Shown here in pieces: positions 1,060 to 60,911 of a stretch of DNA of 64,000 nt. Numbering within the stretch: position 1 is the first letter of the stretch; every line of letters begins with the position of its first letter. The notes below the pieces were generated by a model. That model did no database searches. It saw nothing but the letters and a program-made list of their open reading frames with translations, and had not been told where the DNA came from. Made by a program: the position numbers and the translations under genes. Source of the DNA: a bacterium (GTDB lineage: Bacteria; Patescibacteriota; Minisyncoccia; Phycocordibacterales; UBA2100); NCBI GenBank assembly GCA_030674455.1, contig JAUSGQ010000015.1, forward strand, positions 5,574-69,573, in the 5' to 3' direction.

Positions 1060-1113
1060 GGGCTTGTCCCGCACAATCAGAGCGTAGCGAATGATTTTGT
1101 GGATGACAAACCT

Positions 1114-1191
1114 TACCCAGCACCTTTGTTTCATTGAGAAACGAAGGTGCTGGGTGTAAGATTTTCTAAACTCGTTATACTCGTTAACAAA
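1114..1191 (+). promoter_or_regulatory. Conserved hairpin (ACCCAGCACCTT...AAGGTGCTGGGT) plus conserved leader ending CTAACATG, copy 1 of 3, upstream of ORF 1199
   Basis: 13 bp perfect inverted repeat at 1114-1158 followed by TAAGATTTTCTAAACTCGTTATACTCGTTAACAAAATCTAAC-ATG. Near-identical copies in the same gene-relative orientation lie upstream of aroC (47364-47500) and trpE (52618-52694). Confidence 0.5.
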
Positions 1192-1198
1192 ATCTAAC

Positions 1199-1906
1199 AT
1201 GAACAGCCCAATCATCGGCGCGCGCGCCGCACAATTCAAGAACTACGGAATCGCGTTCGTCATCACAGCGGCGATTTTCGCGACCGCGCTGTATGCCTCC
1301 AACTATTTCAATGACCGGCGCATCGCCGAAATTCGCACGACGCAGGACAATATTTCCATAGACATTCTCTCGCTTGAAACTCAATTTGAGCTTCTTGCCG
1401 AACATTCGTGCAAAGATATTTCGGAAAATTCGGTTTTATCGAAGGAAATCCGTCCGTTGGCAGACCGTCTTTCATATCTTGAGAACCAAACTTCGGTAGA
1501 CGAGGAGGAACTGCTCCGGCTCAAGCGCTACTATTCCCTGCTTCAGATAAAAGACCTTCTACTGATGAAAAAAGTCGCTTCAAAATGCAAATTGAAATCC
1601 GTGTTCATTCTTTATTTCTATTCCAATGAAGGCGATTGCAAAGATTGCGAGAACCAAGGATACGTTTTGACTGCCCTATCCGAAAAGTACCCGCAGCTGC
1701 GCATCTATTCTTTCGACTACAATCTCGACCTCTCTGCCCTTCAAACGCTCCTCAGCATTAGCGATGTGGAAAATAAATTACCCGCGCTCTCTATCAACGA
1801 CAAGATTTATTATGGATTCAAAGGAGTGGATGATATTGAGAAAATCCTTCCGCAGCTGGCGACACTCGACAAGACAGCGACAAGTACGAAGAGCAGTTCC
1901 CGCTAG
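1199..1906 (+). CDS. Hypothetical membrane-anchored protein with a CxxC (CKDC) motif, possibly a thioredoxin-like fold
   Basis: 235 aa ORF with an N-terminal TM helix and a CKDC motif. The start codon sits in the conserved CTAACATG context. No confident family assignment. Confidence 0.45.
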   Translation: MNSPIIGARAAQFKNYGIAFVITAAIFATALYASNYFNDRRIAEIRTTQDNISIDILSLETQFELLAEHSCKDISENSVLSKEIRPLADRLSYLENQTSVDEEELLRLKRYYSLLQIKDLLLMKKVASKCKLKSVFILYFYSNEGDCKDCENQGYVLTALSEKYPQLRIYSFDYNLDLSALQTLLSISDVENKLPALSINDKIYYGFKGVDDIEKILPQLATLDKTATSTKSSSR

Positions 1907-14478: not shown

Positions 14479-15177
14479 TTACGTCCCTACGTCACAATCT
14501 TGTCCTGACAGAACCTTGAAAGACGTCCGGTACGCATCGAGGTTGGAATATTTCTGTTTTCGGTCCTTCGTGTTCCTAACCAAATCTTCCACCTCCGTTA
14601 CTTTTTTAGAATAATCCGTATTTCCATCCAAGGCATCAAACACACAACCAAAACCTTGTCCCCTCTTTTGTGCAACAGCTACCCAAGTCTCCGAATTAAA
14701 CACCTGCGTTAATTCCATCTGCAACGCCTTAGCATACTGCAACTCGGCGGCGCGGATTTTTGCCTCGTTAGGATATTTCTTAAAAATCGCAAGTTCGACA
14801 TCGTCGCGGATGCCGTTTCCGTTTGCGTCTATTCCCTCAACAGTCGCGTCAACTTGCGCGGGGTCGGGCGGCGGCGGGAGATTCTCGCCCATTACGTCTG
14901 CGAGCGTGAGTTTTTGCGCGTGAATTTGCGCGACTACTTCTTGTGTTTTTTCTTGCTCCAATACAAAAGGAAGGCGATAAATAAGCAGGGCGACAAAAAG
15001 CCAGAACGGCACGGCAATAACCCAAAACCACCACTTGCGATAAATGGAGCGGCGGGCTACCGAAATCAAGGGTTCCCCCTGATTCTCTTCATTCCCAGGG
15101 CTGCTCATATTTGAGATTGTAGCACCGTCTCTTTTCTTAACCTCATCACTATCCACAACCCTAGAAAAAACAAACAT
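14479..15177 (-). CDS. Hypothetical membrane protein
   Basis: 232 aa with one TM (WWFWVIAVPFWLFVALLIY). No family recognised. Confidence 0.45.
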   Translation of the reverse strand: MFVFSRVVDSDEVKKRDGATISNMSSPGNEENQGEPLISVARRSIYRKWWFWVIAVPFWLFVALLIYRLPFVLEQEKTQEVVAQIHAQKLTLADVMGENLPPPPDPAQVDATVEGIDANGNGIRDDVELAIFKKYPNEAKIRAAELQYAKALQMELTQVFNSETWVAVAQKRGQGFGCVFDALDGNTDYSKKVTEVEDLVRNTKDRKQKYSNLDAYRTSFKVLSGQDCDVGT

Positions 15178-15211
15178 CCCTATCTTGCGCGGTAGCGTAA
15201 GATAGGGATGT
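15174..15211. promoter_or_regulatory. 38 bp palindrome ACATCCCTATCTTGCGC-GGTA-GCGTAAGATAGGGATGT overlapping the start codon of the PaaX-like gene
   Basis: Read from the sequence. A second copy lies at 15866-15902, immediately downstream of the same gene. Confidence 0.6.
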
Positions 15212-15791
15212 GGGACAGATTGAGGAGAAATCCCGAAAACGCCGAAAGAAGGAGAACATTCAGCAGGCAGTTCTTGCCGCGATAGGAATCGCGGGCATTC
15301 TTGCCGTGACTATGATTGCGCCAAATATCTTTCAGGCGGTTCCCGGTCTCATGGGAAGAAAGCGATACAAACTGGCCTTTCAAGCTCGCACTGCCTCTTC
15401 TCGTCTCGCCATAAAGGGCTACGTGCGATTCATTTTGAAAAATGGAAAGAAATGGATTGAGATTACTGATGCTGGAAGACGCGCTCTGTTGCTCGAGCAT
15501 GAAAAAGCGCGACTCGATGTCATACAGGGCAAACGGTGGGACAAGCGTTACAGACTGGTCATGTTTGACATCCCGCAGAAACGCAAAAACACGAGGGACA
15601 GTGTAAGACGGTTGTTGCGCGAGTGCGGGTTCCTTCGATTGCAGGACAGCGTGTGGGTATTTCCCTACGACTGCGAGGAGTTGATTGTTCTAATTAAGTC
15701 GGATATGCGGCTCGGCAAGGATTTACTGTATGTCATTGTTGATTCGATAGAGAACGACGGTTGGATAAAAAAACACTTCGGCTTGGGATGA
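15210..15791 (+). CDS. PaaX-like transcriptional regulator (N-terminal TM, winged HTH, WDxRW...FDIP central domain); paralog 1
   Basis: RWDKRYRLVMFDIPQKRKNTRDSVRRLLRECGFLRLQDSVWVFPYD resembles the PaaX central/C-terminal (Cas2-like fold) region WDGKWLLLL, and GYVRFILKNGKKWIEITDAGRRALL resembles the PaaX wHTH. GTG start. A paralog lies at 58173-58748. Confidence 0.55.
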   Translation: MGQIEEKSRKRRKKENIQQAVLAAIGIAGILAVTMIAPNIFQAVPGLMGRKRYKLAFQARTASSRLAIKGYVRFILKNGKKWIEITDAGRRALLLEHEKARLDVIQGKRWDKRYRLVMFDIPQKRKNTRDSVRRLLRECGFLRLQDSVWVFPYDCEELIVLIKSDMRLGKDLLYVIVDSIENDGWIKKHFGLG

Positions 15792-15865
15792 TGCGAGAGA
15801 TAGAAATGCGATTGATTCATTTTTGCCCTTTAGCTTTCGATGTCCATTGCATTTCACATTTCCCA

Positions 15866-15902
15866 ACATCCCTATCTCGCGCTACCGCGCAAGATAGGGA
15901 TG
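15866..15902. promoter_or_regulatory. Second copy of the ACATCCCTATCTCGCGC-tacc-GCGCAAGATAGGGATGT palindrome, 3' of the PaaX-like gene
   Basis: Read from the sequence. Together with 15174-15211 it brackets the gene. Confidence 0.6.
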
Positions 15903-15958
15903 TTTGAATGGTTGAGCGTGTAAAACTGTAAAATCGCGAATTACAGAGTCCGAGGGCG

Positions 15959-16645: not shown

Positions 16646-17068
16646 CTATAATCTTTCCGCGCCGTTCTGACCACTGTTCGCGCCAGAATCCTTGCCATTG
16701 CGTAATGGATGCTCGCTCACCTGCTTCAAGAATTCCGAGTGTGTTTCCTTCTTTTCGAAATTGTGTTTGTGGGAAACGAGGTCTGCCAAACGATGTGCCT
16801 GCGTTTCAAGGTATCGCGCGAATCGCGCCGCCTCGAGCGCGCCCCAGTGTATAGCCATGCGGGACAAAAGCAAAAGAATGCCGGGGAGTTTTGATAGCTC
16901 TTCCCTTTTTTCCAGAATGCGCTCCTTAAGTTCTATTGCTTTTTCGTCTGCTATTTTGCGTAAGTTGGGAGAAAGCACCTTTTGACTGCGTTCCTCAAAC
17001 TGCTTCACGACGAACAGGCCGACGATTCCGAGCAGTGACAGAAAAAAGATTACGGATGCGAAAAGCAT
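16646..17068 (-). CDS. Hypothetical membrane protein
   Basis: Start taken at MLFASVIFF. The upstream 20 aa of the ORF (MSVFYSQLFVDWNSFVDW) are read-through into repeat R1 and are repeated verbatim at the sufD ORF. Confidence 0.45.
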   Translation of the reverse strand: MLFASVIFFLSLLGIVGLFVVKQFEERSQKVLSPNLRKIADEKAIELKERILEKREELSKLPGILLLLSRMAIHWGALEAARFARYLETQAHRLADLVSHKHNFEKKETHSEFLKQVSEHPLRNGKDSGANSGQNGAERL

Positions 17069-17071
17069 AAA

Positions 17072-17207
17072 GTGCCAATCAACGAATGAATTCCAATCTA
17101 CAAATAACTGCGAATAAAATACGCTCACCGTCTACAGGTGCCGACCAATGACCGGTCGGCCATTTGTAGCCATTTGTAGTATTCGGATGATTTGTATATT
17201 GGGACAT
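17072..17207. repeat. MITE-like intercistronic element R1 (ends GTGCCAATCAACGAATGAATTCCAATCTACAAAT ... ATTTGTATATTGGGAC), carrying the nested GTCTACAGGTGCCGACCAATGACCGGTCGGC palindrome
   Basis: Shares more than 100 bp with R5 (35290-35459) and R6 (37475-37640). Confidence 0.8.
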
Positions 17208-17210: not shown

Positions 17211-17795
17211 TTATTTCACTGAAAGACGTTCGAATCTGACTACTTCTATCTTCTCGCCGAATTTCTGAATGGCTGAATCTATGAGCCCGCGAATCGTTAT
17301 CGTCGGGTCTTTTACATACGACTGTTCCAGAAGTATGCGTTCTTTGAGGTAGCTCTCGATCTTGCCCTCAACCGCGCGCACTCGCACCGCCTCGGGAAGA
17401 CTCTCGGCTTCTTTTTCAAACACTTCCAGAGCCGCCCGCTTGTCTGCATCTTTCACGTCCGCGCGCGACCTGAACTGCGGGTTCATCGCTGCGACATGCA
17501 TCGCGATTCCGTATGCCAATTTCGCAAATTCCTCGTTCTTCGCGACGAAGTCGGTCTCGCACGCGAGAACGACCGCTCCGACGACGCTTCCGCCGGCATG
17601 CGTGTAGGCGCTCGCGACCCCAGCGCCGAGCGCGCGGCCGGATTTCTTCGACGCTATCGAGGAACTCTGTTTGCGAAGAATTACTTTCGCCTTCTCCATG
17701 TCGCCACCAGCCTCCTGCAGAGCTTTCTTGCACTGCATGACTGAAACGCCGGTCTCATCTCGTAAAGATTTAATGAGTTCAGTAGTTATTTCCAT
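17211..17795 (-). CDS. tsf: Elongation factor Ts
   Basis: N-terminal UBA-like ITTELIKSLRDETGVSVMQCKKALQEAGGDMEKA and the dimerisation domain. Start taken at MEITTE; the longer ORF reads into repeat R2. Confidence 0.9.
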   Translation of the reverse strand: MEITTELIKSLRDETGVSVMQCKKALQEAGGDMEKAKVILRKQSSSIASKKSGRALGAGVASAYTHAGGSVVGAVVLACETDFVAKNEEFAKLAYGIAMHVAAMNPQFRSRADVKDADKRAALEVFEKEAESLPEAVRVRAVEGKIESYLKERILLEQSYVKDPTITIRGLIDSAIQKFGEKIEVVRFERLSVK

Positions 17796-17901
17796 AAGAT
17801 GTTCCAATCTACAAATACATTCCAATCTACAAATTACCACGAATATGACGTGGTGTTATTTGTGGATATTTGTAGCATTCGCATCATTCGCAGATTGGGA
17901 C
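17794..17901. repeat. MITE-like element R2 between rpsB and tsf; it encodes the last 14 aa and the stop codon of rpsB
   Basis: CATAAGATGTTCCAATCTACAAAT...GCAGATTGGGAC. The rpsB C-terminus SQSANDANATNIHK* lies inside the element. Confidence 0.75.
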
Positions 17902-18644
17902 TTCCCCTTCTCGTATGCCTCCGCAATCGCGTTCACCACGAGCCGGATACTGCGCACGGATGTGTCGTTCGCCGGCACCGGATACTGCACTTGAGAAAAG
18001 TCGCAGTCCGAGCTTGAAAGGCCGATGACTGGAATTCCCAACTGGTTCGCCTCGCGTACCGCTGTAAACTCACGCTTCGTATCTACGATGAAAAGCGCCG
18101 CCGGAAGGTCAAGCATTTTCACCAATCCGCCAAAGCGCGCAAGAAGCTCTGTTATCTCCCGGTCAATGAGAAGGCGTTCTTTTTTCGTGTACTTCTCAAG
18201 CTCGCCCGAGTCACGTTCGCTCATAAGCTTTTCCAAACGGTCGATTCGCTTTCGGATATTCTTGAAATTCGTGAGCGAGCCCCCTATCCAGCGTCCGGCA
18301 ACATACGGCGCGCCAATACGCAGGGCGACTTCCTTAACGATATCAACCGCCTCATTCTTGCCGCCGACGAAGAGAAGCTGTTTTGAACTCACAGACTTCG
18401 CACCAGCTTGCGGAGCGCCAACAGCGGGAGTATTACCCGCGATAGAACGCGCGAATTCGCAAGCCGCCTCGAGGCGCTTCTGGGTTTGCTCAAGGTCAAA
18501 AATGTCGTTGCGGTCTTTAGTGCCGAAAATGAAAGGCGAAGCTGTTGGGTGGCGGCGCGTGCGCGAATAGCCAAAATGTGCGCCTGCATCAAACAGAGTT
18601 TTAATGTCTTGTGTTCCTGCGGTCACCCCATTAGAAGTTATCAT
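17856..18644 (-). CDS. rpsB: 30S ribosomal protein S2
   Basis: HFGYSRTRRHPTASPFIFG...and a conserved S2 core. An alternative start lies at 18680. Confidence 0.9.
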   Translation of the reverse strand: MITSNGVTAGTQDIKTLFDAGAHFGYSRTRRHPTASPFIFGTKDRNDIFDLEQTQKRLEAACEFARSIAGNTPAVGAPQAGAKSVSSKQLLFVGGKNEAVDIVKEVALRIGAPYVAGRWIGGSLTNFKNIRKRIDRLEKLMSERDSGELEKYTKKERLLIDREITELLARFGGLVKMLDLPAALFIVDTKREFTAVREANQLGIPVIGLSSSDCDFSQVQYPVPANDTSVRSIRLVVNAIAEAYEKGKSQSANDANATNIHK

Positions 18645-22449: not shown

Positions 22450-23907
22450 ATGGCAAAAGCAAAAACTGAAACAACAAGCAAGGCGACAAAAAAGACCCTG
22501 TACGAAAAGCTGTGGGATGCGCATGTGGTGCGCGAAGCAAAGGGCGAACCTACTATATTGTATATAGACCTGCATCTAATCCACGAGGTTACTACGCCGC
22601 AGGCATTCACCGGATTGCACAACCGCAAACTGCCTGTTCGCCGTACCGACCTCACCATCGCGACCATGGACCATTCGGTGCCTTCCGCAAATCGCAAGAA
22701 GCTCCCGTGGCCCGACGTCATGGCGCAAAAGCAAGTAGAGATGCTGGCGAAGAACTGCAAGAAGCATGGCATCACGCTCTACGGTCTCGACAGCGAGCAT
22801 CAGGGTATCGTACACGTCATCGGGCCGGAACTTGGTATCACACAACCGGGAAAAACAATCGTCTGCGGAGACAGCCACACATCCACGCACGGCGCTTTCG
22901 GTGCGCTTGCCTTCGGCATCGGCACGTCGGAAGTCGAGCACGTACTCGCCACACAGTGCCTGCTTCAGAACAAAACAAAAACGATGGCAATCACCGTAAA
23001 CGGCTCGCTCAAGCCCGGCGTCTATTCCAAAGACATTATCCTGCGCATCATCCACGAGCTCGGCATCGGCGGAGGAACCGGCTATACCTTTGAATATCGC
23101 GGGAGCGCCATCCGCGCCCTCTCGATGGAAGCGCGCATGTCGATCTGCAATATGAGTATCGAAGCCGGCGCGCGCGCGGGAATAATAGCTCCCGACCAGA
23201 CCACAATTGATTACCTCGAAAAGCGCGTGAAATTCAAAAATGATGGCCGTCTACAGGTGCCGACCATGGACCGGTCGGCCGAAAAAAAGCAGGCCATCGC
23301 GAAGTGGCTCTCATGGCAATCCGATGAAGGCGCAAAATTCGACGAAGAACTCATCATTGATGCGGCTACTATTGAGCCGATGGTCACATGGGGTACGAAC
23401 CCGGGCATGTCTGTCGGCATCAGCCAAAAAATCCCAAAAGAAGAAAACGAGGACATCAAAAAAGCACTGGAGTATATGGGGCTCAAGGGAGGCCAAATGA
23501 TGCGCGGGCAAAAAATTGATTACGTATTTTTCGGCAGCTGCACCAACTCCCGCATTGAAGACCTGCGCATAGAAGCGAATATCCTCAAAGGCAAAAAAAT
23601 CGCTCCCGGCGTCACCGTCTTCGCGGTTCCCGGCTCATTCGAGGTCAAAAAGCAGGCCGAAGCCGAGGGACTCCACAAAATATTTCTCGATGCCGGGTGT
23701 GAGTGGCGCGAAGCTGGCTGCTCAATGTGCATCGGCATGAATGGCGACCTTGTGCCTTCGGGAAAATACTGCGCTTCCACTTCAAACCGCAACTTCATCG
23801 GCCGCCAAGGCCGAGGAGCCCGCACGCTCCTCATGTCGCCCGCGATGGCCGCGGTCGCCGCAATTCTAGGCGCTGTCGGCGATTCCCGCGACTACATAAA
23901 GATATGA
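22450..23907 (+). CDS. leuC: 3-isopropylmalate dehydratase large subunit
   Basis: Aconitase-family motifs (GDSHT, SCTNSRIEDL, CIGMNGD). Contains a roughly 12 aa in-frame insertion RLQVPTMDRSAE encoded by the GTCTACAGG palindromic element at 23248-23280. Confidence 0.9.
   Translation: MAKAKTETTSKATKKTLYEKLWDAHVVREAKGEPTILYIDLHLIHEVTTPQAFTGLHNRKLPVRRTDLTIATMDHSVPSANRKKLPWPDVMAQKQVEMLAKNCKKHGITLYGLDSEHQGIVHVIGPELGITQPGKTIVCGDSHTSTHGAFGALAFGIGTSEVEHVLATQCLLQNKTKTMAITVNGSLKPGVYSKDIILRIIHELGIGGGTGYTFEYRGSAIRALSMEARMSICNMSIEAGARAGIIAPDQTTIDYLEKRVKFKNDGRLQVPTMDRSAEKKQAIAKWLSWQSDEGAKFDEELIIDAATIEPMVTWGTNPGMSVGISQKIPKEENEDIKKALEYMGLKGGQMMRGQKIDYVFFGSCTNSRIEDLRIEANILKGKKIAPGVTVFAVPGSFEVKKQAEAEGLHKIFLDAGCEWREAGCSMCIGMNGDLVPSGKYCASTSNRNFIGRQGRGARTLLMSPAMAAVAAILGAVGDSRDYIKI
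23248..23280 (+). repeat. In-frame copy of the palindromic element CGTCTACAGGTGCCGACCATGGACCGGTCGGCC within leuC
   Basis: Identical core to the intergenic copies in R1, R5 and R6. E. coli LeuC lacks these roughly 12 residues at this position. Confidence 0.75.
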
Positions 23908-24040
23908 AGTCCCAATCTACAAATGATACGAATACTACCTGCCCGCCGAAGCCTCGGCGCAGGCGGGCGAATGGCTACGAATACACGTGGTTTAACATTT
24001 GTAGTTATTTGTAGATTGGAATAAATTTGTAGATTGGTAC
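23908..24040. repeat. MITE-like intercistronic element R3, filling the leuC stop to leuD start gap
   Basis: AGTCCCAATCTACAAAT...ATTTGTAGATTGGTACACCT-ATG, with a nested GC hairpin module CCTGCCCGCCGAAGCCTCGGCGCAGGCGGGCG. Confidence 0.8.
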
Positions 24041-24044
24041 ACCT

Positions 24045-24644
24045 ATGAAATCATCTCAATTCAAAGACCTCACATCCACGCTCGCACCCCTGATGCGCGA
24101 CAATGTCGACACCGACCAGATAATTCCGGCGCGCTTTCTCACGGCAACCGACAAAAAGGGATTCGGCATGCGCCTCTTCATGGATTTGCGCTACGAGGAT
24201 GACGGCTTCACGCCCAAGCCCGATTTCGTCCTGAACCAAAAGAAATACAAGAGCGCAAAAATCCTTCTCGCGCATGAAAATTTCGGCTGCGGTTCCTCAC
24301 GCGAACACGCGCCCTGGGCCATCATCGGCGCAGGCTTTACTGCCGTCATCGCGGTCTCATTCGCCGACATATTCAAAAATAATTCGGCAAAAAATGGCTT
24401 GCTCCTCGTCGAACTGCCCCGAGAAGTGATAGACGCGATGCATGCCGACGTCGAAAAAAACCCTAAAGAGAAAGCAAGTATAAATTTGGAAAAGCAAACG
24501 CTCACGTGGAAAAAGCAGGCGCACACATTCGCAATCAACCCGTTCGTTAAGAAGTGCCTTATGGAAGGCCTTGATGACATCGGATACACTTTAAGCTTCG
24601 CTAAGGAAATCAAATCGTTCGAAAACACAAGAGATCAGGCATAA
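24045..24644 (+). CDS. leuD: 3-isopropylmalate dehydratase small subunit
   Basis: LMRDNVDTDQIIPARFL... is a typical LeuD sequence. Confidence 0.9.
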   Translation: MKSSQFKDLTSTLAPLMRDNVDTDQIIPARFLTATDKKGFGMRLFMDLRYEDDGFTPKPDFVLNQKKYKSAKILLAHENFGCGSSREHAPWAIIGAGFTAVIAVSFADIFKNNSAKNGLLLVELPREVIDAMHADVEKNPKEKASINLEKQTLTWKKQAHTFAINPFVKKCLMEGLDDIGYTLSFAKEIKSFENTRDQA

Positions 24645-24754
24645 ATGCTCGGGGCATGCGACCTTTCATTGACGATTCATGGATGTGCCTATATGAGCAA
24701 TGTGCCTGTGGGCGGAAGCCCCTTTTCGGCTAAGGATTCCCAAAGCTGAAGACA

Positions 24755-46259: not shown

Positions 46260-47355
46260 GATTGCGCAAAAAGTGATCCATGATGACGAGTGCTGACATC
46301 GCGTCTACTATCGGAACTGCGCGCGGAAGAACACACGGGTCGTGGCGGCCGGAGGCCTCAAGCTTCGTCGCTTCGCCTCCTATTTTCACCGTTTCTTGTT
46401 CCTTGCGTATCGTTGAAACCGGCTTGAAAACAACGCGGAAGTGAATTGTTTCTCCGTTCGAAATCCCGCCTATGGTGCCGCCGGCGTTGTTCGTTTTTGT
46501 GTGTATGTTGCCGTTTTTATCGGTGTAAAACGGGTCGTTGTGTTCGCTTCCGCGCATGCCGACGCTTCGAAAGCCGAGACCGATGTCGAATCCCTTAACC
46601 GCGTTGATTGAGAGCATGGCACGCCCTAGGTCTGAATTGAGTTTGTCGAACACAGGCTCGCCCAGACCGGCGGGTACGTTTCGGATGACACCCTGAATGA
46701 TGCCACCGATAGAATCGCCGTCTTTTCGCACCTCGTCAACAAGCTCGATCATCTTCTCGGCAACTTTTTGGTCGGGACAGCGGATGATATTTGATTCAAT
46801 GTCTTCCGCCTTCACCGCATTGAAATCCACTTCGGCCTTGATATCGCCCACCTGGGTCACGTAGCTCAATATTTCGACGCCGGAATGTTTTCCGCCGGAG
46901 GCGGATCCGCCTATGGCGGACAGATATTTCTGCGCGATAGCGCCAGCGGCAACGCGCGCGAGAGTTTCCCGCGCCGAAGCGCGGCCGGACCCCCTCCAAT
47001 CACGAGTCCCGTATTTCGCTTCGTAAGTGTAATCGGCATGCGATGGGCGATATAAATCTTTGAGAGCCAGATAATCCTCCGGCTTCGCGTCTTCGTTGAG
47101 TACCATCATGAGAATCGGCGTACCCGTCGTCTTCCCCTCAAAGTAACCAGAAAGAATGTGAATTTTGTCGGACTCTTTTCTCGGAGTCGTTATTTTACTT
47201 TGCCCCGGTCGCCGTCTATCAAGCGCCACCTGGATTTCCTCTTCCGTGATTTCAATACCCGGCGGGCATCCGTCTACCACAACGCCCACAGCCCCGCCGT
47301 GCGACTCGCCGAATGTCGTTATGCGAAAAAGTTGTCCGAATGAATTTCCTGCCAT
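46243..47355 (-). CDS. aroC: Chorismate synthase
   Basis: [33 protein letters not shown]... is the canonical AroC N-terminus. Contains an inserted IGGSASGG linker from the GGATCC palindrome (46892-46920). Confidence 0.9.
46892..46920. repeat. GGATCC-centred palindromic element TCCGCCGGAGGCGGATCCGCCTATGGCGGA, in-frame within aroC
   Basis: Shares an identical 18 nt half with the ilvA and trpA copies. Confidence 0.7.
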
Positions 47356-47363
47356 GTTAGATT

Positions 47364-47500
47364 TTGTTACGAGTAATTACGAGTTAGAAAATCTTACACC
47401 CAGCACCTTTCACGCTCATTCTACCATTTAATCGGCGAGTGACATCTGTTGTTTGTGGTTTACAAATGTAACTAATTCCACATTAAAGGTGCTGGGTTAT
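47364..47500 (-). promoter_or_regulatory. Hairpin (ACCCAGCACCTT / AAGGTGCTGGGT, with a roughly 70 nt loop) plus conserved leader ...TAACAAAATCTAACATG upstream of aroC (copy 2)
   Basis: Same element and orientation relative to the gene start as 1114-1191 and 52618-52694. Confidence 0.5.
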
Positions 47501-47543
47501 AGAAAATGTAGTCACTTCGTTTCTTATTTTCTTATAATAACCC

Positions 47544-51244: not shown

Positions 51245-52608
51245 ACTTTTTTTGCGGAAACGCCAAGCACCTCTTTCATCGCGGCGGATTTGTTTTGAAT
51301 CTCCTCGTACTCTTTTTTCGGAACGGAGTCGTATACGATGCCTCCGCATGTTTGAGTATACGCATCTTCGCCGGTAATGAAAACCGAGCGCAGGGCGAGC
51401 GCGAATGTGCAGTCGCCGTTGAACCCAAAATGCCCAACTCCTCCGCCATACGGTCCGCGCGCCTCTTTTTCGTTAGCATCTATAATTTTTATGGTCTCTA
51501 TCTTCGGCGTCCCGCACACCGTTCCCATCGGAAATTGGCTCGCAAAACCGGAAAACATGTCTTCCTCGGGGCGAATCGTGCCAACAACCTCGCTCGAAAT
51601 GTGCTGTACATGGCTGAACTTCTTAACGGTCATAAGGTCGCGGATTTTCACCGTGCCGAATTTGGCCACTTTTCCGAGGTCATTTCTGTGCAGGTCCACG
51701 AGCATGTTGTGCTCGGCGCGCTCTTTTTCGTCGTTCACAAGTTCGCGCGCGAGCTTCTGGTCTTCCTTCTCATCGGCGCCTCGACGGATCGTTCCCGCGA
51801 GCGGCCGCGTCGTCATTTCCCCATCGCGCAATGAGAACAATAATTCCGGACTCGCGCCGATAATTCTTTTTCCTTGGAATTTGAGGTAGTACATGAACGG
51901 CGACGGGTTTATTTCTCTCAATCGTTCATAGATTTTCACCGTATCGCCTTTAATCTTGTATTTCGTCTTGAATCCGACTTCGCACTGAAATGTTTTCCCT
52001 TCTCTGATTTTCTCCTTCACATCCTCCACGATTTTCGCGTGTTCAGTTTCCGAAAGTCCTTCGTCGACGCACTGCGCACTGAAAGGCTCCGCGCTGATTT
52101 CGGAAGCAATTATTTCCTTCAGTATCGCGCTTCTATCAGTTTCGTAATAAAAATATGTCAGTTCATCGGTCTGCTTGTCCATTATTAATCCGTCCGTATA
52201 GGCCCCAAAAAGGAACTGGTCGAACGTGTCGTGCACTTTGACGTGGAGAGAGGGTTCCATAAGATTAATCGCCTCATAGCTTAAGTATCCGACGAGCCCT
52301 CCGTCGTAATTTCTCCCGATAGTGCGCGCGGGCATGGTATCGCGCAGGGCGTAGTATGGATTCGCAACGGAATAATCTTTTCCATCAACGGTCAAAGTTT
52401 TTTCCCTGCCGCTAATCAGATGTGCAGGCTCAAAACCCAATATTGAGTAGCGGGCGAATTTTCCTTCGTCTCCCAATGATTCAAAAATAAAACAGGTATC
52501 AAATCGCCGTTCGATTTTCCTGAACAATTCGAAGAAGTCCACTCCGTCCGCAAGTTTGACGTATGTCGGTTTCTGCGAAATCTTGATTTTTGGAATTTCT
52601 TTTGTCAT
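51241..52608 (-). CDS. trpE: Anthranilate synthase component I (chorismate-binding)
   Basis: Chorismate-binding enzyme C-terminal motifs (..GAYTDGLIMD.., ..RGPYGGGVGHFGFNGD..). Assigned as TrpE rather than PabB from the trpG-trpD context. Confidence 0.8.
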   Translation of the reverse strand: MTKEIPKIKISQKPTYVKLADGVDFFELFRKIERRFDTCFIFESLGDEGKFARYSILGFEPAHLISGREKTLTVDGKDYSVANPYYALRDTMPARTIGRNYDGGLVGYLSYEAINLMEPSLHVKVHDTFDQFLFGAYTDGLIMDKQTDELTYFYYETDRSAILKEIIASEISAEPFSAQCVDEGLSETEHAKIVEDVKEKIREGKTFQCEVGFKTKYKIKGDTVKIYERLREINPSPFMYYLKFQGKRIIGASPELLFSLRDGEMTTRPLAGTIRRGADEKEDQKLARELVNDEKERAEHNMLVDLHRNDLGKVAKFGTVKIRDLMTVKKFSHVQHISSEVVGTIRPEEDMFSGFASQFPMGTVCGTPKIETIKIIDANEKEARGPYGGGVGHFGFNGDCTFALALRSVFITGEDAYTQTCGGIVYDSVPKKEYEEIQNKSAAMKEVLGVSAKKV

Positions 52609-52617
52609 GTTAGTTTT

Positions 52618-52694
52618 TCTTAACGAGTTTACGAGTTTAGAAACAGCTTACACCCAGCACCTTTGTTTCAGTAAGAAACGAAGGTGCTGGGTTA
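52618..52694 (-). promoter_or_regulatory. Hairpin ACCCAGCACCTT-TGTTTCAGTAAGAAACG-AAGGTGCTGGGT plus conserved leader ...TTAAGAAAAACTAACATG upstream of trpE (copy 3)
   Basis: See 1114-1191 and 47364-47500. Confidence 0.5.
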
Positions 52695-52727
52695 GGAATA
52701 TGTAATTCGCTTCGCTCATAACACTTC

Positions 52728-52781
52728 CTAAAAATAAAAACCGCCCTCACCGCACAAGTATACCTTGTGCTGTAAGGGCGG
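52728..52781 (-). terminator. Strong rho-independent terminator on the minus strand (CCGCCCTTACAGCACAAGG-TATAC-TTGTGCGGTGAGGGCGG followed by TTTTTATTTTT)
   Basis: Read from the sequence. It ends the candidate ncRNA. Confidence 0.7.
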
Positions 52782-52993
52782 ATTTCCGCGGTACCACCTT
52801 ATTTCGGATAGTTTACAGTTGACAGTGAACAGTCTACAGAAACATCCATCTCATCCCGATGCGGGATTGCTCTGTTACGGGAGAACCCGGACCCGCACAC
52901 GCCTTTCGATAAACTCAGGACAAGCACGAGTCGCTGTTGTCATTTCCGAGCCCAATCTCTTGCTTTTACAAGAGACCCGGACAGCGTTAACTA
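52741..52993 (-). ncRNA. Candidate structured ncRNA (about 250 nt) between a sigma70-like promoter (TCGACA-16 bp-TATAAT at 53027-53000) and a strong intrinsic terminator; class unassigned
   Basis: No credible ORF. Promoter and terminator were read from the sequence. The internal hairpins UCUCUUG-UAAAAG-CAAGAGA and CCCG-CAU-CGGG and the segment GCGUGUGCGGGUCCGGG...AACAGAGCAAUCCCGC loosely resemble SRP/RNase P conserved regions but do not match either fully. Confidence 0.4.
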
Positions 52994-53008
52994 TTGGTAA
53001 TTATACCA

Positions 53009-53893
53009 CTAATCTTCTACCTGTCGAGACGCAGATATTTTCATCACCAGGAAAAACGAAGGCAACCGGCATAATCCGTATCGGCTAAATACATACCTCT
53101 CACTGCGTATTATTCTTTGTAATGAAATACTCTTATTCTGTACGCTGGCAATTTGCATTAAAGCCCGGAAAACAAGTTCTATATCTTCGCACGCGTCTTT
53201 GCCCTTTGTAAGAAAATTGAGATGTTTCCTATCAGCTGCAGGAACTCCAAAAGGATATGCGGGAAATTTCCCTTCCAAAATAATTTCTCCGTTTGGTTTG
53301 GTGATACGAACTGCCTCTTCGAATGTCTTTTCCTGATCTGTATCGAAGTCTAGGAAATACGACAGAAATGCCAGATCAAAATGATTTGTCGGGAAGCCTA
53401 GGTGTTCTATCCTTCCCGTATATCCGTGGAAACCATTCGCGCGAATTATCGCGGTACTTGCCGGACTTATGTCTGTACCATGTAATTGACGGCTGTTAAC
53501 GCCAAACTGGTGGTGTAAAAAACGGAGGAGTTCGTTGCTTCCCGCTCCAATATCGATAATTTGTAAATCATTGAGTTTAGGCGCCGCAATGCCGGTTATT
53601 TTATTAAATTGCTCCGGGAAAAGGAGTGCATTCAAATACATATAGTTTGGTCGGTTGCCCTGGTATTCGATATCGTAGATAGAGGCAATAACCTGTTCCG
53701 AACCGGAACTCATCTTATAGGCATGTTTCGCGAGCCTTTGCACTGCATAAAGCCCCGCCATGCGCTTTAATGCCTCGAATCTAAATGCCCAAAGCGGGCG
53801 GCAAAAAAGTCCTGATAGACCGGACAGGGTTTTGATGTGCACGTATTTCGCGCCAAACGAATTTGCGAAGCGAAGTAGTTTGCCGTCTTGCAT
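53009..53893 (-). CDS. Class I SAM-dependent methyltransferase
   Basis: Motif I IIDIGAGSNELL and post-I acidic D (HGTDIS). No DPPY/NPPY, so probably not a DNA methyltransferase. Confidence 0.6.
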   Translation of the reverse strand: MQDGKLLRFANSFGAKYVHIKTLSGLSGLFCRPLWAFRFEALKRMAGLYAVQRLAKHAYKMSSGSEQVIASIYDIEYQGNRPNYMYLNALLFPEQFNKITGIAAPKLNDLQIIDIGAGSNELLRFLHHQFGVNSRQLHGTDISPASTAIIRANGFHGYTGRIEHLGFPTNHFDLAFLSYFLDFDTDQEKTFEEAVRITKPNGEIILEGKFPAYPFGVPAADRKHLNFLTKGKDACEDIELVFRALMQIASVQNKSISLQRIIRSERYVFSRYGLCRLPSFFLVMKISASRQVED

Positions 53894-59368: not shown

Positions 59369-60139
59369 CTATTCTTTGGTCAAAATCTCCGGGCCGTTTT
59401 TGGTTACGATTATCGTGTGTTCACAGTGCGCCGTGCGCGAGCCGTCTTTTGTGCGATACGAGTGGCCGTCTTTATCGACATAAAGGTCGCCCGAGCCGAG
59501 CGTCATCATTGGCTCGATAGCAATCACTAATCCTTCTTCGAGTTTTACGCCGCTTCCTGGAGCCCCAAAATTCGGTACATGCGGTTCTTCGTGAACCCGA
59601 AGTCCCACGCCATGCCCGGAAAGATTTCGCGGGAATCCAAACTGGTATTTCTTTGCTACACGCTCCACGGCATAACCGATGTCTCCAGTCGTGTTCCCGA
59701 TCATAGCCCTCGCAATGCCGGCTGCGAGCGCTTCCTGCGTGCCCTTGAGCAAGCGTACATCCTCCGGGTCGCGCTTCGTGCCCGCTATTACCGTAACCGC
59801 GGAATCGGTAAAGAATCCTTCGTGCCTGATGCCGAAGTCCAGACAAACGATATCGCCATTGAGTATCGCGGTATGGTTCAGTGCGGCGGGGCTGTGTACG
59901 ATGATGTCGTTAACAGAAACGCACAGGCCAGACGGATAGGGTTCCTCATTTTTGCCTGTCTTGTAACCTAAAAAAGCCAGGTCATCGCCGTCTTTTGCGA
60001 CCATTTCCTGGGCATTGTCCTCAAGCTCTTTCGGCGTAATCCCCGGCTCAACCATTTCACTCAATATTCGAAGGTGCTTCGCCAGGCGACGGCCTCCCTC
60101 GCGCAACGCTGATATTTCTTTTTCAGTTCTGGCAATCAT
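59369..60139 (-). CDS. map: Type I methionine aminopeptidase
   Basis: Pita-bread fold metal ligands (..DIVCLDFG.., ..GHGVGL..HE.., ..EPMM..). Confidence 0.9.
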   Translation of the reverse strand: MIARTEKEISALREGGRRLAKHLRILSEMVEPGITPKELEDNAQEMVAKDGDDLAFLGYKTGKNEEPYPSGLCVSVNDIIVHSPAALNHTAILNGDIVCLDFGIRHEGFFTDSAVTVIAGTKRDPEDVRLLKGTQEALAAGIARAMIGNTTGDIGYAVERVAKKYQFGFPRNLSGHGVGLRVHEEPHVPNFGAPGSGVKLEEGLVIAIEPMMTLGSGDLYVDKDGHSYRTKDGSRTAHCEHTIIVTKNGPEILTKE

Positions 60140-60311
60140 ATTAGAGATTCTTAGTGAGCATAGCGAGCTTAGAAACTCTTATATCCGCCCAAATTTTTGA
60201 CTTCGGAAACTTTGTGGCAAAATGCTCAAAATTCGGCATGTGATTGATGTTTAGCATAACTCCGGCACGGCCAAAAATTTAGGCGGATCGTTAAAAACAT
60301 ATTCGCTTCGC

Positions 60312-60911
60312 TCATTGTTTTAGCCCAAGGGCAACGAGAATAGACTTGTGTATAACGGCCACCTCCGGCTCTCCGTTAATTTCATGGATAACGCGGCCGC
60401 GGCTTTTAAGAAGATCGAGCTGCGGCAGCACATCTGTCTTCGTCCATGCGAGTCGCCTGCGAATTCCCTCCTCGGTGTCGTCATTGCGCCCGCGGCTTAT
60501 TAATCGCTTCACCGCAGTGTCGTCGGAAATGACGAGATTGACAACCTGCAGATTATCGCGCTTGAAAAATTTCATCATGTCGTCGAACGCGCGCGTCTGG
60601 TCGTCACCGCGTGCAAGCCCATCAGCAATAATGTGTTCCTCGCCTGTAAAACTATCTATGAGCAATTTGGTTTGAAGATAAATGGCCATGAAATCATAGA
60701 TGCGGATTCCGTTGTCTATTATCTCGCCCGTTAATTTGCCCGCGTACGTTCCCGTATCGCGCAACTTGCGAAGTTCGTGGCCCATGTCAATACGAATAAC
60801 TTTTCGGTCAGATTTGGTCTTCAAGTAATCCGCAAGCAGCTGCACCTGGGTGCCTTTGCCGGCGCCTTGTGAGCCAAAGAAAAGCAGCGTGACAGGCTTG
60901 GATAGAGTCAT
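60312..60911 (-). CDS. adk: Adenylate kinase
   Basis: P-loop FFGSQGAGKGTQ, AMP-binding and LID segments. Confidence 0.85.
   Translation of the reverse strand: MTLSKPVTLLFFGSQGAGKGTQVQLLADYLKTKSDRKVIRIDMGHELRKLRDTGTYAGKLTGEIIDNGIRIYDFMAIYLQTKLLIDSFTGEEHIIADGLARGDDQTRAFDDMMKFFKRDNLQVVNLVISDDTAVKRLISRGRNDDTEEGIRRRLAWTKTDVLPQLDLLKSRGRVIHEINGEPEVAVIHKSILVALGLKQ

What the first reader, a model, noticed from the sequence alone, without database searches (positions are those of the whole stretch)
1114..1191. Conserved hairpin plus leader ending CTAACATG upstream of aroC, trpE and a CxxC membrane protein: candidate cis-regulatory element for the aromatic pathway
Three copies of a 13 bp-stem hairpin (ACCCAGCACCTT...AAGGTGCTGGGT) lie at 1114-1191, 47364-47500 and 52618-52694. 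Each is followed by a roughly 40 nt conserved tract, TAAG(A/C)TTTTCTAAACTCGT(T/A)A(T/A)ACTCGTTAA(C/G)AAAA(T/A)CTAAC-ATG. All three are in the same orientation relative to the downstream start codon. Two of the three target genes are aromatic amino-acid pathway enzymes: chorismate synthase and anthranilate synthase. The tract contains a -10-like TATACT/TAATTA about 20 nt before the ATG. The element could be a shared promoter with an upstream insulator hairpin, or a regulatory leader such as an attenuator or a protein- or ligand-binding RNA.
Basis: seen in the sequence. Interest (0 to 1): 0.6.

Follow-up and report, generated by a model that had tools for sequence, protein, structure and literature searches.

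The report
Generic gene-start cassette, not aromatic regulator
The hairpin-plus-leader is real, but it is a standard "gene-start" cassette that Kaiserbacteria-like ultra-small bacteria place in front of all kinds of genes, apparently in place of a normal ribosome-binding site; the tryptophan-specific control is more likely a T-box-like leader just upstream of the trpE copy.

Summary
The window holds four copies, not three; the fourth precedes map (60137-60320, minus strand). The aromatic-pathway interpretation fails. The same cassette occurs 83 times in 381 kb from related Patescibacteria (CPR) genomes and in at least 120 metagenome contigs. It always points at an ATG and precedes unrelated genes: ribosomal proteins, rpoC, secY, dnaK, ftsZ, ssb and others.

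The cassette fills the spacer from the upstream stop codon to the next start codon. It has four parts:
- a decayed mirror-image left arm;
- hairpin P1 (13 bp; more than 44 different stem sequences, 10 of 13 pairs with compensatory changes), whose loop is short or carries a sigma-70 promoter, as in the aroC copy;
- a G-poor leader with stop codons in all three frames;
- hairpin P2, in which GUGUAAG+X pairs with X'+CUAAC, so the helix ends at position -1 of the AUG. All four Watson-Crick combinations are seen at that pair.

The host shows almost no Shine-Dalgarno motifs. The best reading is a standardised, SD-independent translation-start and cistron-boundary module. How it works is inferred, not shown. 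No Rfam family or paper matches it. A diverged T-box-like leader (52741-52995, minus strand) lies upstream of the trpE copy.

The parts
1060..1114 (+). Copy 1, left arm: the spacer after the stop codon of the glycosyltransferase gene (25-1059). It is diverged, and its GATTTTGT can pair with ACAAAATC of the leader.
1115..1155 (+). Copy 1, hairpin P1: ACCCAGCACCTTTGTTTC / GAAACGAAGGTGCTGGGT, 19 bp, short loop ('class A').
1154..1201 (+). Copy 1, leader with hairpin P2 (GUGUAAG-AUUUU ... AAAAU-CUAAC) and the ATG (1199-1201) of the CxxC membrane protein gene (1199-1906).
47498..47543 (-). Copy 2, left arm. It starts at the stop codon of the aroA-aroK fusion gene (47544-49391).
47485..47497 (-). 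Copy 2, P1 5' arm (ACCCAGCACCTTT).
47411..47484 (-). Copy 2, 74-nt insert in the P1 loop. It carries a sigma-70-type promoter: ATGTCA (47445-47440), 16 nt, TG-n-TAGAAT (47426-47418). The extended -10 is conserved in the JAUSHX01 ortholog.
47398..47410 (-). Copy 2, P1 3' arm (AAAGGTGCTGGGT).
47353..47399 (-). Copy 2, leader/P2 and the ATG of aroC (46243-47355).
52693..52731 (-). Copy 3, left arm (GTTATGAGCGAAGCGAATTACATATTCCTA). It is a decayed reverse-complement copy of the leader; the leader model hits it on the opposite strand (15.8 bits).
52652..52692 (-). Copy 3, hairpin P1 (class A).
52606..52653 (-). Copy 3, leader/P2 and the ATG of trpE (51241-52608; trpG and trpD follow).
60289..60320 (-). 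Copy 4, left arm (ATGAGCGAAGCGAATATGTTTTTAAC). The TGA stop codon of adk (60312-60911) lies inside it.
60183..60288 (-). Copy 4, P1 with a different stem sequence: ATCCGCCTAAATT (60288-60276) pairs with AATTTGGGCGGAT (60195-60183), 12 of 13 plus one U.G. The loop is 80 nt and holds a weak promoter-like TTGCCA.
60137..60184 (-). Copy 4, leader/P2 (AUAUAAG ... CUAAU-AUG, a compensatory G:C to A:U change at the pair next to the AUG) and the ATG of map (59369-60139).
52741..53027 (-). Not part of the cassette but directly 5' of copy 3. It comprises a promoter (TCGACA-16-TG-n-TATAAT, 53027-53000), a T-box-like leader (Rfam T-box 52771-52943, core GGUGGUACCGCG at 52798-52787) and a terminator hairpin with a T-run (about 52790-52737). 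This is the probable Trp-specific control of trpE.

Best explanation
The three hairpin-plus-leader elements, and a fourth before map, are copies of a lineage-wide intergenic expression cassette of Kaiserbacteria-like Patescibacteria. It is not a regulator of aromatic amino-acid genes.

Shown:
- The cassette spans the whole spacer from the stop codon of the upstream co-directional gene to the next ATG.
- It has a decayed mirror-image left arm.
- It has a helix P1 of about 13 bp whose sequence varies but whose pairing is kept. The P1 loop is either short or holds an insert of about 65-80 nt with a sigma-70 promoter aimed at the gene.
- It has a G-poor leader of 45-53 nt with stop codons in all three frames.
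- That leader forms helix P2: GUGUAAG+X pairs with X'+CUAAC, so the helix ends at position -1 of an AUG start codon. The loop of about 25 nt carries two YUCR repeats.

Inferred:
- In an organism that shows almost no Shine-Dalgarno motifs, the leader is a standardised SD-independent translation start module. Incoming ribosomes are unloaded by the three-frame stops. The single-stranded C/U/A-rich P2 loop and the A-rich tract give ribosomes a standby site, and the weak A-U-rich P2 opens to expose the AUG.
- P1 is a boundary or insulator hairpin for RNA arriving from upstream. It may protect the 3' end of the upstream message, protect the 5' end of the downstream message or mark a processing site, and it shields the leader's fold from upstream context. 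It also offers a neutral site for the gene's own promoter.
- Copies spread and are homogenised by recombination or gene conversion of modules.
For: Generic use:
- An exact 17-mer from the hairpin/leader junction gives about 65 true copies in CPR genome assemblies, including five Kaiserbacteria, two Paceibacterota, JAUSHX01 and CAYHST01.
- The leader model finds 83 copies in 381 kb of these loci and 115 in 100 metagenome contigs.
- Downstream proteins hit 84 Pfam families: S11, L6, L20, L24, S18, L36, L2, RpoC, SSB, MraZ, RnpA, Hsp20, DnaK, SecY, LigA, FtsZ, MetK.
- In the JAUSHX01 ribosomal-protein gene cluster (S10/spc region) nearly every gene has its own cassette.

Register:
- ATG follows CTAAC directly in 66 of 76 copies and within 1-3 nt in 6 more. 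GTG or TTG never occurs.
- The upstream stop codon lies about 33-40 nt before P1 in most copies.

Structure:
- P1: among 15 stem variants, 96.9% of cells are paired and 10 of 13 pairs show compensatory changes; the covariation score is 0.604 against 0.182 for shuffles. In metagenomes, 81 of 118 leaders have a 5' arm complementary at 11 or more of 13 positions, against 0 of 118 for shuffled arms, with 44 distinct stems.
- P2: 90% of cells are paired and 8 of 12 pairs are compensatory. In an independent set where these positions were not constrained, the pair next to the AUG is GC 54, AU 8, CG 8, UA 1.

Promoters:
- TTGCYC/TTGTAA-17-TATYAT sits at a fixed place in long P1 loops.
- The aroC copy has TG-n-TAGAAT.
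- The leader is therefore transcribed as a 5' UTR.

trpE copy:
- The cassette lies between a T-box-like terminator and the AUG, where a ribosome-binding site would normally be. P1 is therefore unlikely to be an efficient terminator, and the leader is part of the mRNA.

Host context:
- SD-like 4-mers precede only 4 of 56 window genes. TAnnnT peaks 6 nt before the ATG, which is typical of leaderless promoters.
- The anti-SD motif is reported missing in about half of Parcubacteria (PMC9297842).

Leader properties:
- Stops in all three frames in 64 of 68 leaders, against 19% of shuffles; G content is 9.7%.

Selection:
- Cassettes sit at orthologous sites in the window and in JAUSHX01 (aroC 83% and CxxC protein 91% amino-acid identity). 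In the pairwise alignments they are near-identical, apart from the central repeat of the leader, while the 3' end of the upstream gene hardly aligns.
Against: - No expression data exist. Transcription start sites, processing and any effect on translation are inferred.
- The isolated P2 folds are weak (-5 to -10 kcal/mol) and no better than shuffles.
- Non-Watson-Crick cells in P1 show no strand bias (14 G.U-type against 13 A.C-type). P1 could therefore act in DNA or on either strand.
- Compensatory change in palindromes can also arise from templated repair without selection.
- Copies are paralogous and fall into a few subfamilies, so the number of independent events is smaller than the cell counts.
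- The left arm shows no copy-specific co-evolution with its leader (cognate -15.4 against non-cognate -15.8 kcal/mol, p = 0.77), so its role is unexplained.
- The 16S rRNA 3' end of this lineage could not be obtained, so loss of the anti-SD is not shown for this organism.
- A helix that ends at the AUG could repress rather than promote initiation.
Confidence: 0.55

Rival explanations
1. The cassette is a processing (punctuation) signal. The stacked P1-P2 structure guides an endonuclease, or cleaves itself, at or next to the AUG. Internal cistrons and promoter-distal genes then become leaderless mRNAs, which this lineage appears to translate routinely.
For: - The cassette keeps an exact register with the AUG, and only AUG is used.
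- P2 ends at position -1, and P1 abuts P2 with no spacer.
- The cassette lies between co-directional genes, even inside the ribosomal-protein gene cluster.
- The host shows a leaderless promoter signature and little SD.
- P1 sequence is strongly conserved in many genomes, as expected for a protein-recognised hairpin.
Against: - No known ribozyme or RNase substrate family matches.
- Cassettes with their own promoter place it about 80 nt from the ATG rather than at leaderless distance, which is an odd detour if a leaderless end is the goal.
- Variants with 1-3 extra nt before the ATG are tolerated.
- No 5'-end data exist.
Confidence: 0.15
2. The cassette is a selfish MITE-like palindromic repeat of the ERIC/Correia/REP kind that spreads in intergenic DNA. 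Its effects on genes are incidental.
For: - The whole unit is an imperfect palindrome of about 135 nt, and the left arm is a decayed mirror of the leader.
- There is a permissive internal insertion site.
- Modules are swapped between orthologous sites.
- A small mobile hairpin, CCCGCCTGCGCCGAGGCTTCGGCGGGCAGG, is found inside one leader and in other window repeats.
- A second palindromic cassette family shares the window.
Against: - Every copy points at an ATG in fixed register, which random insertion does not predict.
- Copies are kept at orthologous sites across species.
- Both helices keep pairing through many sequence changes.
- Copies are concentrated at housekeeping genes.
- No transposase or target-site duplication was identified. 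Neither was searched for systematically.
Confidence: 0.15
3. The leader tract is itself a DNA-level promoter, or a tandem operator for a global regulator, that starts a leaderless transcript at the ATG.
For: - The host has TAnnnT 6 nt before many ATGs.
- The other cassette family in the window reads as TTGTAG-N16-TAGATT-N5..12-ATG.
- The leader keeps a fixed register to the ATG, and it contains two direct YTCR repeats spaced 8-10 nt apart.
Against: - The leader has no consistent -35/-10 pair, and the T at the last -10 position is not conserved (AATCT, AAAAA, AACTA, AGTTA).
- Leader length varies from 45 to 53 nt, which does not fit a fixed promoter spacer.
- X and X' co-vary as a helix.
- Good promoters lie upstream in the P1 loops.
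- In trpE the leader lies downstream of a riboswitch terminator.
Confidence: 0.08
4. One reading: the element is an attenuator, riboswitch or protein-binding leader that co-regulates aromatic amino-acid genes.
For: Two of the four window copies precede aroC and trpE. Orthologs of both keep a cassette in JAUSHX01 and CAYHST01.
Against: - The same element precedes ribosomal-protein genes, rpoC, secY, dnaK, ftsZ, map and many others.
- aroA-aroK, IGPS, PRAI and TrpA in the window lack it.
- There is no leader peptide, and stops occur in all frames.
- There is no Rfam match.
- A separate T-box-like leader sits upstream of trpE.
Confidence: 0.01

Closest known systems
ERIC (IRU) and Correia/NEMIS elements: transcribed intergenic imperfect palindromes of enterobacteria and Neisseria (from my own knowledge)
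   Same: Both are imperfect palindromes of about 100-150 nt, present in many copies in transcribed intergenic DNA. Both have defined internal insertion sites and fold into long RNA hairpins. Both can carry promoters and can affect mRNA processing and stability.
   Different: Those elements occur in both orientations and at variable distance from genes. Every copy here points at an ATG, with the helix ending at position -1. Only the right arm is kept intact. The pairing is maintained through dozens of different stem sequences and across many species.
Putative mobile promoters: near-identical upstream regions in front of unrelated genes (Matus-Garcia, Nijveen and van Passel 2012; from memory)
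   Same: One upstream sequence is shared by many unrelated genes within a genome, and some copies include a sigma-70 promoter.
   Different: The constant part here is the transcribed leader with two co-varying helices, not the promoter. The promoter is an optional insert in a hairpin loop.
SD-independent translation start regions (Bacteroidota, cyanobacteria and chloroplast A-rich unstructured leaders; standby-site model), and engineered 5' UTR insulators such as RiboJ or bicistronic designs (from my own knowledge)
   Same: There is no purine-rich SD. The leader is A/U/C-rich and G-poor. A structural element separates the start region from variable upstream RNA. Stop codons unload upstream ribosomes.
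   Different: Natural SD-less leaders are not a single conserved sequence reused gene after gene. Here one leader of about 48 nt with a defined hairpin is reused. No experimental evidence shows that it enhances initiation.
Punctuation of polycistronic RNA: RNase III sites between phage T7 genes, and tRNA punctuation giving leaderless mitochondrial mRNAs (from my own knowledge)
   Same: Structured spacers lie between co-directional genes, the host appears to use leaderless mRNAs, and the structure abuts the AUG.
   Different: No cleavage has been shown. The structure is not tRNA-like, and each helix alone is shorter than a typical RNase III site.
T-box leader (Rfam RF00230)
   Same: A T-box-like leader with the GGUGGUACCGCG core, an antiterminator/terminator and a T-run lies 5' of the trpE cassette in the window and in JAUSHX01.
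   Different: It is a separate element upstream of the cassette. It scores 31.7 and 27.8 bits, far below the gathering score of 93, and has a very short Stem I. The cassette itself has no T-box features.

Membership tests
Amino-acid operon attenuator (leader-peptide type, e.g. trp or phe leaders) | A short leader ORF with tandem codons for the regulating amino acid | tested here: not met
   Leaders have stop codons in all three frames in 64 of 68 cases and almost no internal start codons. There is no Trp, Phe or Tyr codon run.
Amino-acid operon attenuator (leader-peptide type, e.g. trp or phe leaders) | Alternative antiterminator/terminator hairpins followed by a U-run | tested here: not met
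   P1 is a single stable hairpin. U-rich sequence starts 6 nt after it and only in some subtypes. The terminator scan picks only the TTGTTT subtype.
Amino-acid operon attenuator (leader-peptide type, e.g. trp or phe leaders) | Restricted to biosynthetic operons of one pathway | tested here: not met
   84 Pfam families follow the element, mostly housekeeping. Nearly every gene of the JAUSHX01 ribosomal-protein cluster carries its own copy.
Known riboswitch or cis-regulatory RNA families (Rfam 15) | A match to a curated covariance model | tested here: not met
   No hit at gathering score. At E up to 10 the cassette gives only hairpin noise far below the cut-offs.
REP/ERIC/Correia-type intergenic palindromic repeats (MITE-like) | Many copies of an imperfect palindrome in intergenic DNA | tested here: met
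REP/ERIC/Correia-type intergenic palindromic repeats (MITE-like) | Occurrence in either orientation and at variable distance from flanking genes | tested here: not met
   All copies point at an ATG. CTAAC abuts the ATG in 66 of 76 copies.
REP/ERIC/Correia-type intergenic palindromic repeats (MITE-like) | Target-site duplication and a cognate transposase (RAYT or IS) | not tested
   No systematic search was made. No transposase family appears among the 25 Pfam families listed (of 41 matched) for the 40 further window ORFs.
Rho-independent terminator | A G+C-rich stem followed directly by a U-run | tested here: inconclusive
   The stem is present. The U-rich tract is displaced by GUAAG and is absent in the AGCUU subtype. 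In trpE the cassette lies downstream of a riboswitch terminator, where a second efficient terminator would make little sense.
Sigma-70 promoter located in the leader tract | -35 and -10 hexamers separated by 16-18 nt | tested here: not met
   No consistent hexamers are present and leader length varies from 45 to 53 nt. The feature is met by the inserts in long P1 loops.
Shine-Dalgarno ribosome-binding site | A purine-rich GGAGG-like motif 5-10 nt before the start codon | tested here: not met
   Leader G content is 9.7% and positions -1 to -12 read (A)AAAUCUAAC. SD-like 4-mers precede only 4 of 56 window genes.
T-box leader (the element 5' of the trpE cassette, not the cassette itself) | The T-box core sequence with antiterminator/terminator, Stem I with a specifier codon, and a score above the Rfam gathering cut-off | tested here: inconclusive
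   The core GGUGGUACCGCG and a terminator with a T-run are present and conserved in the JAUSHX01 ortholog. UGG followed by G is conserved after a Stem I-like hairpin. The scores of 31.7 and 27.8 bits are far below 93, and Stem I is much shorter than in the model.

The most novel reading that the evidence does not exclude
In a bacterial clade that has given up Shine-Dalgarno pairing, a cis-encoded 'universal leader' has taken over start-site selection. The stacked P1-P2 structure may be cut, by an RNase or by itself, at the AUG to make internal cistrons leaderless; this would be a bacterial counterpart of mitochondrial tRNA punctuation. Alternatively the YUCR loop may dock on the ribosome or on a dedicated factor. 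Either way, housekeeping mRNAs would share one leader, much as spliced-leader or 5'TOP mRNAs do in eukaryotes.
Probability: 0.2. Interest if true: 0.85.

Novelty: new variant of a known kind. Interest (0 to 1): 0.68.

Why it matters
Nothing is known experimentally about how Patescibacteria (CPR) start translation. Part of the group is reported to lack the anti-SD motif. Here one structured leader of about 48 nt is clamped to the start codon and reused in front of ribosomal-protein, polymerase, chaperone and biosynthetic genes across many genomes and groundwater metagenomes. That gives a concrete, testable candidate for the missing start signal and for how operon-internal genes are expressed in these organisms. 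It also defines an RNA motif not found in Rfam, with two helices supported by covariation, and it would improve gene-start calling in CPR genome assemblies. For the finding as written, the practical result is a correction: the element says nothing about aromatic amino-acid regulation, and the likely Trp sensor is a diverged T-box next to it.

Tried and rejected
- **Left arm pairing with its own leader.** Duplex energies are no better for cognate than for non-cognate pairs. I dropped the claim of copy-specific long-range pairing.
- **Strand assignment of P1 from wobble pairs.** The first small set showed mostly U.G on the sense strand. The larger metagenome set is symmetric, 14 against 13. I withdrew the argument.
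- **Promoter inside the leader.** No consistent hexamers are present and the spacing varies.
- **GUG-UAA 'start-stop' with the SD-like AAGGUG of P1.** The SD-like bases are buried in P1 and are absent from other P1 variants. I did not pursue it.
- **A small ORF from the ATG in the left arm through P1.** The frame is not conserved between the 28-nt and 39-nt P1 versions.
- **16S rRNA 3' end.** No 16S gene is present in any fetched locus, so complementarity between the leader and rRNA could not be tested.
- **Exact-protein lookup of the window's aroC.** The protein is not on record.
- **Literature.** No paper combines CPR terms with leaderless, Shine-Dalgarno or 5' UTR motifs, apart from PMC9297842. 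None contains the 15-nt junction sequence GGTGCTGGGTGTAAG; the 12-mer hairpin arms turn up only in unrelated eukaryotic papers.
- **Ungapped codon comparison of aroC.** It was unreliable after indels, so I do not quote third-position identities.
- **Weak Phe_leader hit.** The hit at 41961-42029 (E = 0.041) was not followed up and is probably chance.
Full report
**1. The observation**

The 12-mer ACCCAGCACCTT occurs six times exactly in the window, as three inverted pairs at 1115-1155, 47398-47497 and 52652-52692. Each hairpin is followed by GTAAG and a conserved tract of about 40 nt that ends CTAAC directly before an ATG. Each is oriented towards that ATG.

The downstream genes are a 235-aa CxxC membrane protein with no Pfam hit, chorismate synthase and anthranilate synthase component I. 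trpG, trpD and an aroA-aroK fusion gene lie between the two aromatic copies.

A covariance model of the leader, run without filters, recovers the three copies at 59-72 bits. It also finds a fourth copy at 60137-60184 (minus strand, 50.6 bits) in front of map, downstream of secY and adk. So the description is correct but incomplete.

**2. The element is not specific to aromatic genes**

An exact 17-mer from the hairpin/leader junction was scanned over one genome per prokaryotic species. It gave about 65 true copies, all in Patescibacteria (CPR) assemblies: five Kaiserbacteria, two Paceibacterota, JAUSHX01, CAYHST01 and others. Every one is followed by the same kind of leader and an ATG.

The model finds 83 copies in 381 kb of these loci.

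The 69 downstream proteins match 84 Pfam families: ribosomal proteins S11, L6, L20, L24, S18, L36 and L2, RpoC, SSB, MraZ, RnpA, Hsp20, DnaK, SecY, LigA, FtsZ, MetK and others. The only aromatic enzymes among them are the orthologs of the window's aroC and trpE. In the ribosomal-protein gene cluster (S10/spc region) of JAUSHX01 almost every gene has its own copy.

In the window, the remaining aromatic genes have no copy: aroA-aroK, indole-3-glycerol-phosphate synthase (IGPS), phosphoribosylanthranilate isomerase (PRAI) and TrpA. The other half of that criterion, absence of covariation, is not met.

**3. Anatomy**

I collected 71 leaders, 68 of them distinct.

- *Position.* In most copies the nearest same-strand upstream ORF ends 33-40 nt before the hairpin. 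The cassette therefore fills the whole stop-to-start spacer, about 107-121 nt or about 160-180 nt.
- *Left arm.* The 30-45 nt before the hairpin (consensus GTTATGAGCGAAGCGAATTACAnnTTCTTA) are a decayed reverse complement of the leader. The leader model hits the left arm of copy 3 on the opposite strand.
- *Hairpin P1.* It comes with a short loop (37 copies; window copies 1 and 3) or with the same arms separated by about 65-80 nt (34 copies; window copies 2 and 4).
- *Promoters in long loops.* The long loops contain a sigma-70-type promoter at a fixed place: TTGCYC or TTGTAA, 17 nt, TATYAT, ending 35-38 nt before GTGTAAG. The aroC copy has ATGTCA-16-TG-n-TAGAAT at 47445-47418, and the extended -10 is conserved in the JAUSHX01 ortholog.
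- *Leader.* It is 45-53 nt long and has 9.7% G. It carries stop codons in all three frames in 64 of 68 cases, against 19% of shuffles. ATG follows directly in 66 of 76 matches and within 1-3 nt in six more. It is never followed by GTG or TTG.

**4. Two helices are supported by compensatory change**

*P1.* Fifteen stem variants from the genome set are 96.9% paired, and 10 of 13 pairs show changes on both sides. The covariation score is 0.604, against 0.182 for shuffles and at most 0.178 for slid controls. These variants include unrelated stems such as ATCCGCCTAAATT/AATTTGGGCGGAT (window copy 4), ATCCGACACCACT/AGTGGTGTCGGAT and ACCCTGTTAAAT/ATTTAACAGGGT.

In the metagenome set only the leader core was fixed by the search pattern. 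There, 81 of 118 leaders have a 5' arm matching at 11 or more of 13 positions within 150 nt, against 0 of 118 for shuffled arms, and the stems fall into 44 distinct sequences.

*P2.* Inside the leader, G plus a 5-6-nt word X pairs with X' plus C: ATTTT/AAAAT, AGCTT/AATCT, TAGTC/AACTA, ATATT/AATAT, ATTTC/GAAAT. In the genome set 83.9% of cells are paired against 69.6% in shuffles, and 41 cells show double changes against 12.9.

The helix continues outward. GUGUAAG pairs with CUAAC, with one A.A mismatch, so its last established pair joins leader position 3 to position -1 of the AUG. In the genome set this pair shows GC to AU (window copy 4) and GC to CG. In the independent metagenome set it is GC 54, AU 8, CG 8, UA 1. 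The raw pattern is GTG...AAC-ATG, GTC...AAG-ATG, GTA...AAT-ATG and GGC...AAGC-ATG.

The A and U of the AUG could add U:A and G.U pairs, but there is no covariation to prove it. Those same two leader bases are the last two pairs of P1, so P1 and P2 abut directly.

*Caveats.*
- The isolated P2 folds are weak and not better than shuffles.
- Copies are paralogs that fall into a few subfamilies.
- Non-Watson-Crick cells in P1 show no strand bias, so P1 alone does not tell RNA from DNA.
- The left arm shows no copy-specific co-evolution with its leader.

**5. Context that bears on mechanism**

- The window's genes almost never have SD-like motifs (4 of 56), and TAnnnT peaks 6 nt before the ATG, the signature of leaderless promoters. 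A published survey reports the anti-SD motif missing in about half of Parcubacteria (PMC9297842). I could not obtain this lineage's 16S rRNA.
- The promoters in the P1 loops place the 3' arm and the leader in the 5' UTR.
- The trpE copy is the most informative. A strong promoter (53027-53000) is followed by a structured leader of about 260 nt that matches the Rfam T-box model at 52771-52943 (31.7 bits, E = 1.6e-5 for the region and 0.003 for the window, well below the gathering score). It carries the T-box core GGUGGUACCGCG (52798-52787) and a terminator hairpin with a T-run.
- The JAUSHX01 ortholog has the same arrangement (27.8 bits). A UGG followed by G is conserved after a Stem I-like hairpin.
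- The cassette lies between this terminator and the AUG, exactly where a ribosome-binding site would sit in a Firmicute T-box leader. P1 is therefore unlikely to be an efficient terminator. The cassette works inside the mRNA, and the Trp-specific control, if any, belongs to the T-box-like element and not to the cassette.

**6. Conservation**

The window genome and JAUSHX01 are related: aroC is 83% and the CxxC protein 91% identical at the amino-acid level. Cassettes sit at the same sites. In the pairwise alignments they are near-identical apart from the central repeat of the leader, whereas the 3' end of the upstream gene hardly aligns.

Modules are exchanged between orthologous sites. The central tandem-repeat part of the leader differs in the CxxC copy. 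The trpE copy has a different P1 and a different X/X' subtype in the two genomes, while the left arm is unchanged. This points to recombination or gene conversion among copies within a genome.

**7. Best explanation**

The cassette is a generic expression module. I hold this part with high confidence: it is a cis element tied to the start codon and to the gene boundary, with conserved base-pairing, used for many unrelated genes in one clade.

The mechanism I commit to is inferred, at about 0.55. The leader is a standardised SD-independent start region. Three-frame stops unload incoming ribosomes. A single-stranded C/U/A-rich loop with two YUCR motifs and an A-rich 3' strand serve as a standby or landing site. 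A weak helix presents the AUG. P1 is a boundary hairpin that insulates the leader from upstream RNA, protects message ends or marks a processing site, and hosts the gene's own promoter where one is needed.

Rivals:
- a punctuation or cleavage signal that makes leaderless mRNAs (0.15);
- a selfish ERIC/Correia-like palindromic repeat (0.15);
- a promoter or operator within the leader (0.08);
- the aromatic regulator (0.01).

**8. Comparison with known systems and novelty**

No Rfam family matches. No paper in the searchable library describes the element or contains its junction sequence.

In architecture the cassette resembles ERIC and Correia elements and 'mobile promoters'. In proposed function it resembles SD-less start regions and engineered 5' UTR insulators. 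It fails the defining features of attenuators, T-boxes and other riboswitches, SD sites and, for the leader itself, sigma-70 promoters.

Three things set it apart from known intergenic repeats. Its orientation towards a start codon is strict. Its helix ends at position -1 of the AUG. It is reused across many species. I file it as a new variant of a known kind. The open possibility is a substitute start-site system for an SD-less clade, which would be much more novel.

Noticed in passing
window 52741-53027 (minus strand); L091 6165-6330 (minus strand): A T-box-like leader sits upstream of trpE. It comprises a promoter (TCGACA-16-TG-n-TATAAT), a short Stem I-like hairpin followed by a conserved UGG-G, the T-box core GGUGGUACCGCG, and a terminator with a T-run. 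Its Rfam T-box scores are 31.7 and 27.8 bits (gathering score 93), and it is conserved in the JAUSHX01 ortholog. It may be a diverged T-box riboswitch in a CPR bacterium.
   Followed up: partly
window 17066-17207, 17795-17903, 23896-24042, 28153-28262, 35288-35459, 37469-37640, 39060-39169, 42774-42884, 62987-63095: A second and more abundant intergenic cassette family is built from ATTYGTAG / ATTGG words. It is also palindromic around a central hairpin (CCGACCGGTCATTGGTCGG) and also ends at an ATG, for example before secY and leuD. It reads as TTGTAG-N16-TAGATT-N5..12-ATG, which suggests a promoter for near-leaderless mRNAs. In this genome it serves housekeeping genes that carry the CTAAC-type cassette in relatives.
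   Followed up: partly
window 35399-35428 (+), 37580-37609 (+), 23938-23967 (-); degenerate copy near 49485-49512; L014 leader: The 30-nt G+C-rich mini-hairpin CCCGCCTGCGCCGAGGCTTCGGCGGGCAGG is inserted into copies of both cassette families, including inside a CTAAC-type leader in another genome. It behaves like a tiny mobile insertion.
   Followed up: no
whole window (56 called genes): Shine-Dalgarno-like motifs are almost absent (4 of 56 genes). TAnnnT peaks 6 nt before the ATG, which suggests frequent leaderless mRNAs.
   Followed up: partly
window 22450-29204, 40084-41373, 42131-52608: For a CPR-type genome the window is rich in amino-acid biosynthesis genes. It holds trpE/G/D, IGPS, PRAI, TrpA, a TrpB-like pyridoxal-phosphate-dependent (PALP) enzyme, an aroA-aroK fusion, aroC, leuA, leuC/D-like aconitase subunits, isopropylmalate dehydrogenase, threonine dehydratase and a class IV aminotransferase.
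   Followed up: no
window 24867-24903, 25173-25209, 29955-29991; 31248-31289, 31345-31386, 31641-31682: Two families of perfect palindromes, ATTCTAACATTTTGCAAAATGTTAGAA and TATTGCAGTGTTTTGCAAAACACTGCAATA, flank small genes (24871-25161 and 31356-31637). They look like operator sites of small HTH/ArsR-type regulators.
   Followed up: no
window 41387-41482: A tandem 48-nt repeat made of CTGCGTTA-type words with a period of about 10 nt lies directly upstream of the threonine dehydratase gene (40084-41373). This is another word-repeat leader or promoter. A weak Rfam Phe_leader hit lies nearby at 41961-42029 (E = 0.041).
   Followed up: no
window 49392-49619 (minus strand): The spacer between trpD and aroA-aroK is bracketed by the inverted repeat CCCGTTAGAAG ... 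CTTCTAACGGG, which ends at the ATG. It contains a promoter-like site (TTCACA-16-TATGTT, 49597-49570). This is a third stop-to-start palindromic spacer design.
   Followed up: no
window 15171-15224 and 15863-15916: Palindromic repeats of about 44-52 nt (AACATCCCTATCT...AGATAGGGATGT) flank the ORF at 15210-15791 and abut the divergent gene at 14479-15177.
   Followed up: no
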